IMG/VR virus record: IMGVR_UViG_3300012942_000083
Coordinates: 1-40,000 of that record
Origin: a virus
Taxonomy: Duplodnaviria > Caudoviricetes
Direction: 5' to 3' (one strand)
DNA length: 40,000 bases
The notes below the pieces were generated by a model. The model was not told the DNA's origin and searched no databases. It worked only from the letters and a program-made list of their open reading frames with translations. Of this stretch, positions 1 to 21,206 are shown piece by piece; position 1 is the first letter of the stretch; every line of letters begins with the position of its first letter. The position numbers and the translations under genes are program-made.

Positions 1-47
1 CCCTTACAAGGCGTAGGTCACAGGTTCGAACCCTGTAGCACCCACCA
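1..47 (+). tRNA. 3' part of tRNA-Val(UAC), truncated by the window start; probable attL/attB core
   Basis: Anticodon loop CTTACAA (3-9), T-arm ACAGG-TTCGAAC-CCTGT, acceptor strand GCACCCA and CCA end at 45-47; integrase follows directly. Confidence 0.92.
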
Positions 48-16285: not shown

Positions 16286-16855
16286 TTATTTCTCCCACTT
16301 GATCTGACCGTCCGGCTGGATGGTGCCGCGCATGGTTTTGGGTACGACCTGGGCGACTTCGAACCTGGGACCGACTGGCGCGCCGGCGATACCCTTCGCG
16401 GTAGCGCTGGACGGGCACACGCCGCCGCTGGCTTCGAACGCCTGACGGTTGGCGTCACTGCCGAAGCACACCATGCGCAGTTTGGCGGCCTGATGCAGGC
16501 CTAACTGGTAGAGCATGACCGTGTCCTGACGCACGTTGCAGTCGTACATGGGCTTGGCGTGGCTGCCGGCGAACCCGCCGATCGGCGTGCCAACGGTCAA
16601 CGTATCGCTACCGCCGCAGTTGCTCGGCGAAAACCCGAACGCGGACGGTGCGCCATAGATCATCGGGGTGCCGTAGTTGTGCGTCGTGGTGGGATATTGC
16701 GTACCCTCGAAGGTCACGCGTGAATTGCCTGTGGCGCCCTGATTGGAGACGGTACTTGCGGCCTGGGTCTGCGCCATGCTGCTGGCCGTAGTGCCCGCAA
16801 ATGCAGGCGTGCAGGCTACAATCGCCAGAGCGGCTACGAATTTGATCTTGTTCAT
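16286..16855 (-). CDS. Secreted protein with four Cys in the mature region
   Basis: Sec signal MNKIKFVAALAIVACTPAFA; AGGAGA ribosome-binding site. Confidence 0.85.
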   Translation of the reverse strand: MNKIKFVAALAIVACTPAFAGTTASSMAQTQAASTVSNQGATGNSRVTFEGTQYPTTTHNYGTPMIYGAPSAFGFSPSNCGGSDTLTVGTPIGGFAGSHAKPMYDCNVRQDTVMLYQLGLHQAAKLRMVCFGSDANRQAFEASGGVCPSSATAKGIAGAPVGPRFEVAQVVPKTMRGTIQPDGQIKWEK

Positions 16856-16883
16856 GTTTGAAATCTCCTGTTCGTGGCTGTCA

Positions 16884-16905
16884 GGGGCCCGTGCGACCGG
16901 GCCCC
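16884..16905. other. Intercistronic GC hairpin without a U tract
   Basis: GGGGCCCG-TGCGAC-CGGGCCCC between the two secreted-protein genes. Confidence 0.6.
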
Positions 16906-16914
16906 GCCTACCGA

Positions 16915-17421
16915 TTACCAGTTGTTGTTCGGGTTGATGTTGCTGATCTGGGTGATGTCAGCGATCACGCCGATGGCGCCCACGCCGAACACCGCGTTGC
17001 CGCTGGCGTTGTTCGTGGACGAGGCGAACGCGCTGTTGCCGTTGAGGATCACGCCGTTCTGCAGGCCCACCTGATCGGTCGAGCCGTAGCCGCCGGTGAC
17101 CGCGTATTGGGTGGTGCTCGTGTTCACCGTGGCGCCGCTCGGCGTGACCTGGCCGCCGATGGTGGCCGAACCACCACTGATGGCGCCGGCCGCCTGGATC
17201 GAATAGCCGTTGCCCACGACCTCGGTACCGGCTGCTGCGTTGCCCTGGCTCACCGAGTTGGCAGAGCCGTAGGCCGCGCCACCGAAACCGGCCGCGCCGC
17301 CCGCAACGATCGTGCTCGAGGACGACGGACCACCCTGGTTCCCGTAGTTGCCACCGTGGGCAAATGCCAGCGGGGCGGATGCGGCCAGCGCGGCCGCGAG
17401 GATGAGTTGCTTCAATTTCAT
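16915..17421 (-). CDS. Secreted Gly/Ala/Ser/Asn-rich low-charge protein
   Basis: Sec signal MKLKQLILAAALAASAPLAFA; AAGGAGA ribosome-binding site; mature part has no Lys, Arg or Cys. Confidence 0.87.
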   Translation of the reverse strand: MKLKQLILAAALAASAPLAFAHGGNYGNQGGPSSSSTIVAGGAAGFGGAAYGSANSVSQGNAAAGTEVVGNGYSIQAAGAISGGSATIGGQVTPSGATVNTSTTQYAVTGGYGSTDQVGLQNGVILNGNSAFASSTNNASGNAVFGVGAIGVIADITQISNINPNNNW

Positions 17422-17820: not shown

Positions 17821-18233
17821 GCCGCTTCCCCCAGGCCGACCAGATAAATCTCGACCGCTTTATCGGCTGCGTAGAGCGCGTATTCTTCGGCGAAGCGAGT
17901 GATCAAGCGATCGAGATAGGCGTCGGCCCGGCGTCGCGTGGCGGAATCGGCATCGTGAAGGCAGCCCGACATCAGGATCGACAGGTCTGCCGATTCTTCA
18001 TGGGCGATCAGGTCGTCGTACAGATCGCCGGCATCGAACTCGACATAGTGACCCTCGCGGTTGACGGTGCGGACCGTGCCCATGCGGGTGCGCAAGACTT
18101 CTTTCGCGCGCCGGGCAATGGTGGCTATCTGTTCGACGTAGGTGTCGCCGCGGATCGCATCGCAGACCAACTGCAGGCCTGACGAAGGCTCGGGCGGTAT
18201 GGTCGGCTGTTCCGGCAAATTGTTGAGATTCAT
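17817..18233 (-). CDS. First gene of the PL operon, hypothetical (138 aa)
   Basis: ATG at 18233 with GGGAG at 18245-18241. Confidence 0.7.
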   Translation of the reverse strand: MNLNNLPEQPTIPPEPSSGLQLVCDAIRGDTYVEQIATIARRAKEVLRTRMGTVRTVNREGHYVEFDAGDLYDDLIAHEESADLSILMSGCLHDADSATRRRADAYLDRLITRFAEEYALYAADKAVEIYLVGLGEAA

Positions 18234-18254: not shown

Positions 18255-18976
18255 AACCAGGGATTTCAGGAAAGGAGGGTGGTGCCGGTCTTTCCCGGCT
18301 GTATAGCATTCGGGTGTAGAAGTCCGAACACTTCCCGGTGAGGCACTCCGGGCATACTCGCGGCACAGGCCATCATCGAAGCGGCGCCAAGGGGTGGCGC
18401 GCATCGAGCCGCACGGCTACTCACCCGGTCTTTGCGGCAGCCGCGCCGCTTCGATGATGGCGCTGCCTACGATGTCCGACCGCAGGCAGCGCCGTTGATG
18501 GCTTACAGTTTCGGCCTCTCTGTCGACCCTTGGGTGGTTACGCCGAAGCCCTACCTCCGGGGTCGATTTCATGTTTCAGTTGCCTCATGGGCTGCCGCCA
18601 TCATCGAAGCGGGCCGGACGTTACCCCGGCGATGTGTTTCGACTTCACCAGCATCCTGTGCTGTAGAGCGGTCTGCGGTCACCTACCTACCTTGATCGCT
18701 CCTTTTTTCTGTGGCCGCGATACCCACTTTGCGTGTCACCGATTTCCCACGCCGCCGCTTCGATGATGGTCCCGGCACTCACCCGGCCGGGTTAGGTCCA
18801 TTTGCCCATGAATGGGTACCGCTCGCTATGCGGGGCCTCTGACATCGCACTTCGCCGTCCTTCTGGACCTTGGCAGCTTCCTGCGACTCACGCTGCGGCA
18901 CACCGGTCAGAACGTGCTACGCACGCATGGCCCCTCTCTTGGGTGTGATATCCCAACTTTCCTTAAATCCCTGGTT
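18255..18976 (-). ncRNA. Candidate large structured PL-leader RNA with two tRNA-like domains
   Basis: 20-bp terminal inverted repeat (one mismatch), two internal 15-19 bp inverted-repeat pairs and many hairpins; no credible ORF. Confidence 0.7.
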
Positions 18977-18987
18977 TTAAAAGAGCG
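18975..18987 (-). promoter_or_regulatory. boxA-like antitermination site (nutL-like)
   Basis: CGCTCTTTTAAAA on the minus strand, about 25 nt after the predicted PL start; compare lambda/rrn boxA CGCTCTT(T)A. Confidence 0.65.
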
Positions 18988-19018: not shown

Positions 19019-19047
19019 ATATTAGGCGTAGCCTTACTATATGTCAA
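19019..19047 (-). promoter_or_regulatory. PL promoter
   Basis: TTGACA (19047-19042), 17-bp spacer, TAATAT (19024-19019). Confidence 0.85.
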
Positions 19048-19062
19048 TAGGCTATGCCTAAT
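19021..19062. promoter_or_regulatory. OL operators (two 17-bp sites)
   Basis: ATTAGGCGTAGCCTTAC (19021-19037) and AATAGGCTATGCCTAAT (19046-19062); consensus ATTAGGC-N3-GCCTAAT shared with OR. Confidence 0.88.
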
Positions 19063-19084
19063 AATTTTCGAGGAGCTAATCACG

Positions 19085-19546
19085 ATGTCGGAAGAACAGA
19101 GGAAGGAATACTGCGGCCGTTGCGATGCTGCCACGCCGCTGGATGTCGGCCTGAATCAGGCAGCGCTGGATATGGATTGGGATATCGCGCACGAAGTGTT
19201 CGACATACCCGAAGAAGCGCTGATATCGTTGGAGGCGGTCAACATCGCGCTGCCCGCCTATTCCACGGATCGGGCTGCGGCGAATAGGGCGATGACTGCG
19301 GTATGGGCCAAGGGAGGAGGGGTGAGGGCGCGCCTGGATGCTGAACTGGCCAGGTGCGCGAAGTTGGACAAGCTGACCTCAGCAGAGTTTCGAGGGCTGT
19401 CGACGGCGATTATCGTGCTGACACCGGATAGAATTTGCGAGGCCGTGCTTACGACCGTTCGTGCATGTAGGGAAGCAAAATGGTTCGCAAACACCCGAGA
19501 TGGTCACCGCGCATTCCATGAAATAGAAAACCGTGATTCTCGCTGA
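19085..19546 (+). CDS. Hypothetical protein with phage ABA-sandwich-like motifs (153 aa)
   Basis: GAGGAG ribosome-binding site, ATG at 19085; LPAYSTDRAAA and TPDRICEAVL motifs; N-terminal CxxC. Confidence 0.6.
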   Translation: MSEEQRKEYCGRCDAATPLDVGLNQAALDMDWDIAHEVFDIPEEALISLEAVNIALPAYSTDRAAANRAMTAVWAKGGGVRARLDAELARCAKLDKLTSAEFRGLSTAIIVLTPDRICEAVLTTVRACREAKWFANTRDGHRAFHEIENRDSR

Positions 19547-19670
19547 TGTAGGTATAGAACTGAACGAAATCCTCTTCTGTGACGCGCCGTTCTGGCGGCC
19601 GTTCGAGCCACAGATCAAGAAGGGTTTTCGAGTTCTCGGCCTTGGTCGACTTTCTGGTGAGGGAGGTCAT
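19449..19670 (-). CDS. Hypothetical protein (73 aa)
   Basis: TAATG coupling with the upstream membrane-protein gene. Confidence 0.55.
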   Translation of the reverse strand: MTSLTRKSTKAENSKTLLDLWLERPPERRVTEEDFVQFYTYISENHGFLFHGMRGDHLGCLRTILLPYMHERS

Positions 19671-19966
19671 TATTTTTTGTTTGCCTTGTCCTTGCCCATA
19701 GCGACTCCAATGGTGAACACGATTCCGAATATGAACCAGATGATCGCGAATATCGCCACACGACCCGCCAGCATTGTGAATGACGTATTTTCCCAACCAC
19801 CGCTGAATGCAGCCACTGCTGCAACAACTGCGGCCGTCCATGAACAAAATGAGACTGTGTTTTTGTCGGTCAGTACTTTAAGCTTGGCCAGCAAGTAGCC
19901 GGCAACAAACCCGCAGAATGCCAAGGCAATCCAGCCGAAGCCAGTCCCTTCATACGGATCGATCAT
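19670..19966 (-). CDS. Small inner-membrane protein, about 3 TM helices (98 aa)
   Basis: Three hydrophobic stretches and a basic C-terminal tail; ATGA coupling at 19966. Confidence 0.75.
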   Translation of the reverse strand: MIDPYEGTGFGWIALAFCGFVAGYLLAKLKVLTDKNTVSFCSWTAAVVAAVAAFSGGWENTSFTMLAGRVAIFAIIWFIFGIVFTIGVAMGKDKANKK

Positions 19967-20247
19967 TGTTGCTTTACTACGCACCGGAAATTGAACACCA
20001 CGTCTCTGTTGCCCATCCCTCGATGGCTATCGACAGTTGAGTCGACGCGCACCATGTCGAGGCCTTTCTGGTCACAGAATTGGTTGGCTTTCTGTGCCGC
20101 CTTCAGGATGAGTTCGCTGTCGGAAATGGAGCCGTTCCCAGTGGATGAGCCGATGGTGTACGTGTCACGATCCAGCTTGGATACCGAACCGACGGATACA
20201 CAACCGGCCAATGCACACGCTAAGATCGCAACAGTTAGAACTCGCAT
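19963..20247 (-). CDS. Lipoprotein (94 aa), candidate superinfection-exclusion factor
   Basis: MRVLTVAILACALAG-C lipobox; GGAGG ribosome-binding site; two further Cys. Confidence 0.82.
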   Translation of the reverse strand: MRVLTVAILACALAGCVSVGSVSKLDRDTYTIGSSTGNGSISDSELILKAAQKANQFCDQKGLDMVRVDSTVDSHRGMGNRDVVFNFRCVVKQQ

Positions 20248-20433
20248 ACCGCCTCCACTCATGATTAAATACAACTGTATTGTTAAGTTACTTACGGTCG
20301 AAAAAAAAGCGATCGAGGGAAAACTCACGGGGATGAACCATTTTTATATTGAGATTCCCACGCCGCGATAAATTACAGTTGGTTGATTCTGTACTATCGG
20401 TTCCAACCAAATCGACATTATTTCTCCCGCCCT

Positions 20434-20877
20434 CTATGACCCGAATTTTTTTGTTGGTTTCTTGCCCAGCTTGTTGAGAAACAGAAGCATGTAGTCTTCA
20501 AGGTCTTCGCGCTGCTGTGCTGTCAGACCATATATTTGCTCTGGGCGCACATGTTTGAACGGCCATTCAATGTCATAGAGGCCGCTCGACTCCTCAACGC
20601 TGATGTTGGCTGAACGGTCAGAGGTATCGGTCAAACCGGCAGGCCATTCAGATTTTGTGAGCCCCCAGTGTTCTGGGCCCACTACATCCGAGAAATAGCG
20701 CCATAGCTCCGGTAATTTATCTTTGGATACAGCGCCTTTCTTAACCCAGTCCGCCAAAGACGGGGGCTGCATTTTGAAGTGACGAGCAATCGCGGCTTTC
20801 GAGTCGGCGCTTCCCGACTTTAGCTTCAGGTCGATCGCTTTGCCGATTGCTTGTCCGAATTCCTTTCCCTTAAGCAT
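20434..20877 (-). CDS. cI: Phage repressor (HTH) lacking a C-terminal S24 peptidase domain
   Basis: KAAIARHFKMQPPSLADWVKKG HTH; divergent from cro across the operator cluster; only 147 aa. Confidence 0.85.
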   Translation of the reverse strand: MLKGKEFGQAIGKAIDLKLKSGSADSKAAIARHFKMQPPSLADWVKKGAVSKDKLPELWRYFSDVVGPEHWGLTKSEWPAGLTDTSDRSANISVEESSGLYDIEWPFKHVRPEQIYGLTAQQREDLEDYMLLFLNKLGKKPTKKFGS

Positions 20878-20954: not shown

Positions 20955-21206
20955 ATGATGAAAAACACTCCTGTTGCGAAGGCCTGCGAGATTGTCGGCG
21001 GCCTTTCTGCATTGTCGAAAATCCTTGGCATCAAGCCTCCGACTGTTCATCAGTGGTGTCATGGCGTTCGCCCGGTCCCGATCGAATGGTGCCTAGCCAT
21101 CGAACGAGCAACAGAGGGCGGCGTCACGCGCCAGGAGCTGCGACCCACCGACTACTGGCGCATCTGGCCTGATCTGCCGGCACCGCAGGAGTCCGTTCAT
21201 GCCTGA
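20955..21206 (+). CDS. cro: Cro/YdaS-like HTH regulator
   Basis: GGLSALSKILGIKPPTVHQW...IERATEGGVTRQELRP. Confidence 0.88.
   Translation: MMKNTPVAKACEIVGGLSALSKILGIKPPTVHQWCHGVRPVPIEWCLAIERATEGGVTRQELRPTDYWRIWPDLPAPQESVHA

What the first reader, a model, noticed from the sequence alone, without database searches (positions are those of the whole stretch)
18369..18769. Two tRNA-like cloverleaves, each held in the same CCATCATCGAAGCGG inverted-repeat stem
Seen: one motif occurs four times in alternating orientation, as a perfect 19-bp pair (18369-18387 / 18443-18461) and a perfect 15-bp pair (18598-18612 / 18755-18769). On the transcribed minus strand, unit 1 has an acceptor-like stem GAAGCGG/CCGCUUC, a 2-nt linker and a D-like arm GCGUG-GGAAAUCGGUGA-CACGC. 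It then has a long variable insert (stem GCGGCCAC/GUGACCGC with a purine loop containing AAGGAG, plus a CAGCA-CAGGA-UGCUG hairpin) and a T-like arm GCCGG-GGUAACGU-CCGGC stacked on the acceptor stem. Unit 2 has the same stem and linker spacing, then three short hairpins (GGCUGC/GUAGCC, GUGCG/UGCGC, GCCA/UGGC). Neither unit has TTC, CCA or a normal anticodon arm, so they are not tRNAs. Known: P1/P7 C4 and P4 CI RNAs are phage RNAs matured by RNase P that act through their loops, and tmRNA and bacterial Y RNAs use tRNA-mimic domains. Inference: a cassette design with a constant processing stem and variable payload, possibly releasing antisense RNAs or tRNA decoys (for example against anticodon nucleases).
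Basis: partly seen in the sequence, partly recalled or inferred. Interest (0 to 1): 0.8.

Follow-up and report, generated by a model that had tools for sequence, protein, structure and literature searches.

The report
Phage array of tRNA-shaped RNA cassettes
The repeats are paired RNA stems in the long non-coding leader of a prophage's early operon, likely cut by the host enzyme RNase III to release small RNAs, one of which is a tRNA-shaped shell that related phages fill with many different inserts of untested function.

Summary
The four repeats are real. They close two cassettes in a ~780-nt non-coding leader (promoter, boxA-like motif, enclosing long stem) of a lambdoid prophage's early-left operon. 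The 172-nt unit belongs to a family with no Rfam 15 match: a 15-bp CCAUCA-based stem, D-like arm and T-like arm around a 48-184-nt insert (40 distinct units, 31 insert clusters; 22 of 151 sampled genomes of one betaproteobacterial family). The stems covary (350/360 pairs; permuted mean 238), favour G-U on the transcribed strand and place 39 of 56 mismatches at positions 9-10. That matches the register of RNase III cuts mapped in vivo in look-alike stems of the E. coli Qin and Rac prophage leaders. A second tRNA-shaped shell often follows the stem, and one insert occurs in both shells. The 93-nt unit shares only the stem; it is not a shell member. C4-type antisense targets and anticodon decoys got no support. 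Cleavage, expression and function are untested. This scan noted the second shell before on other DNA; the stem code and cut register are added here.

The parts
19019..19047 (-). sigma70-type promoter (10/12 consensus), likely the early-left promoter; sits inside a 15-bp-arm inverted repeat 19020-19063 (operator-like)
   Evidence: I13; repressor-like ORF 20434-20877(-) divergent from a Cro/YdaS-like gene 20955-21203
18977..18987 (-). boxA-like antitermination motif (name recalled from lambda/rrn)
   Evidence: sequence; same motif upstream in 8 of 35 loci (4 on the opposite strand) and 7 of 23 genome loci
18952..18976 (-). 5' arm of a 25-bp long-range stem enclosing the whole array
   Evidence: I1, 88%; pairing probability 0.97; same stem with changed, still pairing sequence in L104 and L106
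18774..18905 (-). conserved upstream RNA module ending in a hairpin that abuts the first stem
   Evidence: 68-76% identity to L054, L083, L104, L276; an abutting hairpin precedes 33 of 40 stems (no control run)
18598..18769 (-). unit 1: type I tRNA-shaped shell. 15-bp stem; D-like arm 18752-18731; 100-nt payload 18730-18631; T-like arm 18630-18613
   Evidence: model R1 (built without it) scores it 60.9 bits
18497..18602 (-). middle module, closed by its own GAUGGC/GCCAUC stem that overlaps the 3' arm of unit 1
   Evidence: 8 sequences, closing stem 8/8, 5 of 28 pairs compensatory; also in L276
18459..18493 (-). 13-bp hairpin abutting the second stem
   Evidence: I22; similar hairpin in L104
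18369..18461 (-). unit 2: same processing-type stem (19 bp) around a 55-nt insert with no known relative; not a shell member
18255..18279 (-). 3' arm of the long-range stem, 22 nt before the first start codon
17817..18233 (-). first gene of the operon, 138 aa, no PHROG or Pfam family; YqaJ and RecT genes follow downstream

Best explanation
The repeats are the arms of RNA stems that likely serve as RNase III cut sites, dividing a prophage early-operon leader into small RNAs, and unit 1 is a tRNA-shaped shell predicted to fold and protect a swappable insert that would act in trans. Shown by comparison: stem conservation and covariation, the shell, insert exchange, and placement in lambdoid leaders. 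Inferred: transcription from the promoter at 19047-19019 after induction or infection; cutting after stem position 10 and about 2 nt offset on the other strand (alternative: after position 7), giving pieces of about 154 nt (18759-18606), 155 nt (18605-18451) and 73 nt (18450-18378); trimming of following shells by tRNA-maturing enzymes; stability from the elbow-like fold. Least certain step: the inserts most likely work as structured protein-binding or regulatory RNAs rather than as antisense guides to the phage's own transcript.
For: 43 of 84 hits to a 5'-half pattern carry the complementary 3' arm, which the pattern did not contain. Positions 7-15 pair in 350 of 360 cells against a permuted mean of 238 (max 270), with 16 different inner 9-mers; the T-like stem is fully paired in 39 of 40 units and its loop is 8 nt in 39 of 40. 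G-U 22 vs A-C 7 on the transcribed strand. Independent set found by the second shell's start: 49 of 62 have an upstream stem (0.8 expected), 53 of 62 close a 7-bp acceptor-like stem, 44 with an abutting T-like arm. In 62 distinct stems, 39 of 56 unpaired cells lie at positions 9-10, position 6 is A-U in 56, and position 0 is mostly G-U or A-U. This fits the overhang, proximal-box and distal-box rules (PMC1540722, PMC6212723); the outer-half matrix scores cut-after-10 best (26 of 62). In vivo RNase III cuts in the Qin and Rac leaders fall after the 10th base of similar stems, and a second Qin stem releases a 130-nt RNA of the same shape. Inserts fall in 31 clusters among 40 type I and 41 among 43 type II units; one 76-nt tRNA-Cys-like insert is 88% identical in a type I and a type II shell. 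L106 has a type I stem with type II arms; phage PHB04 has a stem with only the T-like arm. Payload helices covary in the window's subfamily.
Against: No expression or cleavage data for any betaproteobacterial copy. The central 10-position matrix does not single out a register (after 8: 15 of 40, after 10: 14, after 7: 9), and shuffled stems score nearly as well (median p 0.19). The outer-half scoring was chosen after seeing the mismatch pattern, and a rule-based count fits cut-after-7 as well (58 vs 52 of 62). A cut after position 10 leaves only 5 bp of acceptor-like stem on unit 1, weakening tRNA mimicry of the product. The stems (15-19 bp) are shorter than the ~22 bp ideal. The E. coli elements match model R3 only weakly (E 0.009, 0.021, 0.23; none for Rac), so homology is suggested, not shown. 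The D-like arm was in the search pattern, so its invariance is not evidence. Unit 1's T-like loop lacks the UC of the main subfamily; GG in the D-like loop goes with UC in 28 of 30 units but is present in 1 of 10 units of unit 1's loop type. At equilibrium the window's identical arms prefer a nested cross-pairing (0.98/0.80), though unit 1 forms first during synthesis. Sequences are related, so counts are not independent events.
Confidence: 0.6

Rival explanations
1. The stems and shells are only punctuation: processing signals that mature neighbouring tRNAs or tmRNA and set stability or translation of the downstream mRNA in cis; the inserts are passengers.
For: Real tRNAs and permuted tmRNA lie beside units; L155's near-canonical tRNA begins inside a stem arm; the long-range stem ends next to the first ribosome-binding site; insert diversity is extreme.
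Against: The window's leader has no tRNA or tmRNA; inserts and the middle module keep sequence and covarying helices between phages; one insert is kept in two shells.
Confidence: 0.2
2. The array is an antitermination or attenuation element (nut/put-like) acting on RNA polymerase, with alternative pairings as a switch.
For: Position right after the early-left promoter and a boxA-like motif; mutually exclusive pairings between stem arms and following modules; the first gene has no family.
Against: No terminator-like site on the minus strand of the leader; units also occur before terminase genes and opposite lysis genes; boxA-like motifs in only 8 of 35 and 7 of 23 loci.
Confidence: 0.08
3. C4/CI-type antisense RNAs matured by RNase P, or decoys for anticodon nucleases.
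For: A 7-bp inner stem, 2-nt linker and T-like arm give tRNA geometry; RNase P processes phage regulatory RNAs including C4 (PMC4919922); 3 of 83 inserts carry anticodon-type loops against 0.5 expected, maximum 3.
Against: No C4 or c4-2 match; no excess cis complementarity (mean 8.8 vs 8.3 nt); no anticodon loop in the window leader and no encoded CCA. Host mRNA targets were not searched.
Confidence: 0.08
4. DNA-level sites (protein binding, inversion or insertion-element ends) or neutral relics of tRNA clusters.
For: Modules are shuffled at these motifs between phages; neighbouring stems often share inner sequence, as after local duplication.
Against: The inner stem sequence changes while pairing is kept; G-U strand bias; fixed mismatch position. 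The one DNA run laid lists no strand-change joint (contigs drop rare variants).
Confidence: 0.04

Closest known systems
E. coli Qin prophage dicBF leader (DicF, RF00039) and Rac kilR leader
   Same: Early-left prophage leader cut by RNase III at two stems, releasing small RNAs (10.1101/2023.04.14.536235; PMC6212723 tables). The first stems resemble these and are cut after the 10th base; the second Qin stem releases a 130-nt RNA of the same shell shape. A similar element is seen in SfV and ST64B.
   Different: No DicF match or intrinsic terminator here; several stems share one fixed base motif; two interleaved shells with exchangeable inserts; a long-range enclosing stem. I found no paper describing the Qin 130-nt piece as tRNA-shaped.
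P1/P7 C4 and P4 CI immunity RNAs (RF01695, c4-2)
   Same: Phage RNA processed from a precursor with tRNA-like shape (C4 as RNase P substrate; CI recalled)
   Different: No Rfam match, no cis target, inserts vary freely, stem pattern suits RNase III
Bacterial Y RNAs (YrlA)
   Same: Mimic D arm, T arm and acceptor stem without an anticodon arm (PMC4201824)
   Different: No Ro60 hit among the 20 window proteins scanned, no Rfam match, and arrays of cassettes
T4 RNAC/RNAD
   Same: Phage small RNAs of unknown function (PMC9697503); their place in a tRNA cluster is recalled
   Different: Sequence not compared; lytic phage, late RNAs, no cassette code known
Allo-tRNA polycistrons (Mukai et al., PMC5389517)
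   Same: Arrays of irregular tRNA-like RNAs
   Different: Those keep anticodon arms and are mostly acidobacterial; these replace that arm with 31-184-nt inserts
Engineered tRNA-scaffold expression (recalled, no call)
   Same: A foreign RNA placed where the anticodon arm lies, stabilised by a tRNA shell
   Different: Natural, polycistronic, predicted RNase III release; stabilisation untested

Membership tests
tRNA | ARAGORN or Rfam tRNA call | tested here: not met
tRNA | anticodon stem-loop | tested here: not met
   none in the window leader
tRNA | 7-bp acceptor-like stem, 2-nt linker, D arm, 5-bp T stem | tested here: met
   unit 1 and 40 family units; not unit 2
tRNA | 7-nt TTCRA loop and 3' CCA | tested here: not met
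   8-nt loop, no encoded CCA; a canonical loop occurs in L001 and L155
C4/CI antisense RNAs | match to Rfam C4 or c4-2 | tested here: not met
C4/CI antisense RNAs | loops complementary to sites in the same operon | tested here: not met
   1 of 40 at p<0.05 within the fetched flanks; short split targets could be missed
C4/CI antisense RNAs | maturation by RNase P | not testable with these tools
   needs end mapping
Y RNA (YrlA) | adjacent Ro60 gene and Rfam match | tested here: not met
   no Rfam match; no Ro60 family among 20 window proteins scanned, not all ORFs scanned
tmRNA | G3-U70 acceptor, CCA, tag reading frame | tested here: not met
   separate permuted tmRNA genes lie beside units in L176 and L199
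Qin dicBF-type prophage leader | non-coding stretch in a repressor-controlled early-left operon | tested here: met
   repressor genes upstream in L114, L150, L152, L172
Qin dicBF-type prophage leader | stems fitting RNase III rules | tested here: inconclusive
   compatible, best register equals the Qin register, but not specific against shuffles
Qin dicBF-type prophage leader | DicF-like sRNA with intrinsic terminator | tested here: not met
Qin dicBF-type prophage leader | rnc-dependent processing in vivo | not testable with these tools
   no RNA run available

The most novel reading that the evidence does not exclude
Proteobacterial temperate phages run a natural RNA expression vector: a standard RNase III stem code plus interchangeable tRNA-shaped shells that carry a large, horizontally shuffled library of functional RNA inserts (protein decoys, anti-defence or host-regulating RNAs, even nested tRNAs), an RNA counterpart of accessory-gene cassettes.
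Probability: 0.3. Interest if true: 0.9.

Novelty: new variant of a known kind. Interest (0 to 1): 0.7.

Why it matters
It would show that temperate phages carry a hidden, modular repertoire of RNA genes that annotation misses: 22 of 151 sampled genomes of one family carry the type I shell. It gives base-level predictions for cut sites and products. It also offers an easy test bed, because a look-alike RNA is already known to be cut out by RNase III in E. coli K-12. The shell may also be a usable scaffold for producing stable RNAs.

Tried and rejected
Rfam found nothing on either shell: window and 40 related loci. blastn of the leader against named phages gave only short matches. The 15-mer scan gave 86 loci, of which 4 were true relatives. 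A strict pattern over 401 genomes of the class gave 2 matches that do not look like units. Run search: no RNA holder listed; one DNA soil-metagenome run that may be the source. Laid contigs show a low-depth contig joining 18749-18769 to 18281-18302 across 230 other letters, perhaps a related phage; not independent evidence. Unit 2 interior: no relatives. A small ORF in the unit 1 insert is not conserved (alignment). The 83% inverted match of the insert to 20301-20318 is treated as chance. Model R2 had a mis-registered D arm and was not used; R3 replaced it. The 'mid stem' value was mis-indexed and is ignored. Literature: ten searches listed no paper on this shell or stem code. Not seen and able to change the novelty call: supplements of PMC5737381 (unreadable) and files 1, 2 and 4 of PMC10690425, a catalogue of 8,495 IMG/VR candidate RNAs (6 other files searched for five short motifs, 0 hits); subscription papers are not held.

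Full report
Observation. The 15-mer occurs four times exactly, in alternating orientation, forming a 19-bp and a 15-bp perfect pair at the stated coordinates. No tRNA or Rfam family covers it. Unit 1 (18598-18769) has the described linker, D-like and T-like arms.

Setting. The window is a lambdoid prophage or temperate phage: integrase at 217-1329 beside a tRNA fragment at 1-44, a Cro/YdaS-like gene, YqaJ, RecT and terminase. The element lies on the minus strand between a strong sigma70-type promoter (19047-19019, inside an inverted repeat) and the first start codon at 18233. A boxA-like motif is followed at once by a 25-bp stem whose partner lies 672 nt later, enclosing the array. Two Pusillimonas prophage loci keep this stem with changed sequence. 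The host is not identified. The nearest named relatives are betaproteobacterial, apart from one contig titled Geminicoccus.

The type I shell. A pattern covering only the 5' half gave 83 viral loci and 84 matches, of which 43 had the complementary 3' arm. The other 41 were set aside: most look like chance matches in coding DNA, but at least one (L170) begins like a true unit and had no arm within the 500 nt searched. With earlier loci and the window there are 40 distinct units. Each has a 15-bp stem starting CCAUCA, a CG linker, a D-like arm, 48-184 nt of insert, a 5-bp T-like stem with an 8-nt loop (39 of 40), then the 3' arm. Stem positions 7-15 pair in 350 of 360 cells (permuted mean 238, maximum 270) across 16 inner sequences. 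G-U outnumbers A-C 22 to 7 on the transcribed strand. Inserts form 31 clusters. Unit 1 belongs to a subfamily of 7 aligned members with 95% paired cells and 12 compensatory pairs, 0 of 500 shuffles reaching it; the sequences are related, so this is not a probability. A model built from 18 other units finds unit 1 at 60.9 bits, 22 of 151 genomes of the Pusillimonas family sample (2 of them already known), and Acidovorax phage AP1. Bordetella phage PHB04 has a stem holding only the T-like arm, among tRNAs and a permuted tmRNA. Four loci lie downstream of repressor genes and several upstream of recombination genes; others lie before terminase or opposite lysis genes (147 of 195 ORFs scanned, most without family).

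The type II shell and the stem code. The last five bases of the 3' arm often begin another module that pairs with a later CCAUC: 23 of 36 at 6 bp or more against 4.6 expected, 11 with an abutting T-like arm against 0.4. Some are near-canonical tRNAs (L155, L193). In the window this place holds the conserved middle module. A scan for the commonest type II start gave 71 loci (62 distinct): 49 have an upstream stem (0.8 expected; 7 type I, 42 other inserts), 53 close a 7-bp acceptor-like stem, 44 with a T-like arm. Their inserts form 41 clusters among 43. One tRNA-Cys-like insert is 88% identical between type II L228 and type I L133, and L106 mixes a type I stem with type II arms. Stem, shell and insert therefore recombine freely. 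A type II acceptor cannot form while its 5' strand is held in the upstream stem, so cleavage or strand exchange is needed (inference).

Which nuclease. In 62 distinct stems, 39 of 56 unpaired cells are at positions 9-10, position 6 is A-U in 56, and position 0 is G-U or A-U in 56 of 72 contexts. E. coli RNase III needs an A-U pair in the proximal box, a distal box about 11 bp from the cut with a U-G pair, and in vitro little pairing at the two overhang positions (PMC1540722, passages and section 15 part 1; PMC6212723, passages, which finds those two positions paired in ~90% of in vivo sites). These rules place the overhang at 9-10. With the published count matrix (supplement part 1), the central positions alone do not choose a register and do not beat shuffled stems. 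The outer half, chosen afterwards, prefers a cut after 10 (26 of 62), while a simple rule admits 7 (58) or 10 (52). As an outside anchor, mapped in vivo cuts in the Qin and Rac leaders (supplement rows) fall after the 10th base of stems that begin similarly, and the second Qin stem releases a 130-nt RNA that folds like a type II shell. Model support for kinship is weak (E 0.009 ST64B, 0.021 SfV, 0.23 Qin, none for Rac). [quoted passage not shown]

Function. Inserts show no excess complementarity to their own flanks and rarely an anticodon loop (3 of 83), which argues against the C4 and anticodon-decoy readings; host mRNAs were not searched. Conserved, covarying insert structure and the moved insert argue that inserts matter. 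The most likely reading is RNase III-released, shell-stabilised RNAs acting in trans (0.6). Pure punctuation (0.2), antitermination (0.08), antisense or decoy (0.08) and DNA-level or relic explanations (0.04) remain.

Known versus new. It works like the Qin dicBF leader but lacks DicF. It fails membership tests for tRNA, C4, Y RNA and tmRNA. Ten literature searches listed no description. Passages only were read in PMC3867540, PMC5389517, PMC4201824, PMC10690425, PMC4603805, PMC2864571, PMC5737381, 10.64898/2026.05.13.724894, PMC9697503 and PMC4919922. Two unread supplements could already list these RNAs as unnamed candidates. Earlier unchecked notes of this scan describe the type II shell or similar leaders in other genomes; these are leads, not support. 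Verdict: real feature, new variant of a known kind, interest 0.7.

Noticed in passing
window 1-44 and 217-1329: 3' part of a tRNA (TAC anticodon) at the window edge next to the integrase: likely an attachment-site copy
   Followed up: partly
window 16286-17421 (-): Two adjacent early-operon genes (189 and 168 aa) with signal-peptide-like starts, one Gly/Asn-rich; no Pfam or PHROG family
   Followed up: no
window 19085-20250: Accessory genes between the repressor-like gene and the promoter, one on the opposite strand; no family hit in the scans run
   Followed up: no
window 18497-18602; L046, L054, L079, L083, L104-L106, L199, L276: Middle module with invariant CUGAAACAUG and AAACUGUAAG segments, two possible T-loop-like motifs; no Rfam match; deserves its own study
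   Followed up: partly
window 18650-18664 (-), L156: Hairpin with a CAGGA loop resembling a CsrA/RsmA site (motif recalled); kept in 2 of 7 subfamily members
   Followed up: no
L133:2033-2108 and L228: tRNA-Cys(GCA)-like RNA nested as insert in two different shells
   Followed up: partly
L199:2050-4300 (Bordetella phage PHB04): Unannotated RNA operon of about 2 kb: three tRNAs, permuted tmRNA, several stems and modules
   Followed up: partly
L272:1054-1183, L273, L298, L299: tRNA-shaped unannotated element in the Qin, Rac, SfV and ST64B early-left leaders; 69 phage records match the Qin piece, 34 over most of its length
   Followed up: partly
L115, L147: Rfam Burkholderiales-2 motif about 1 kb upstream of type I units
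   Followed up: no
L399: Member of unit 1's subfamily closed by a different stem sequence without the CCAUCA base
   Followed up: no
L104, L106: First genes after these leaders share a short DA(G/S)DL stretch with the window's 138-aa first gene; possible family of unknown function
   Followed up: no
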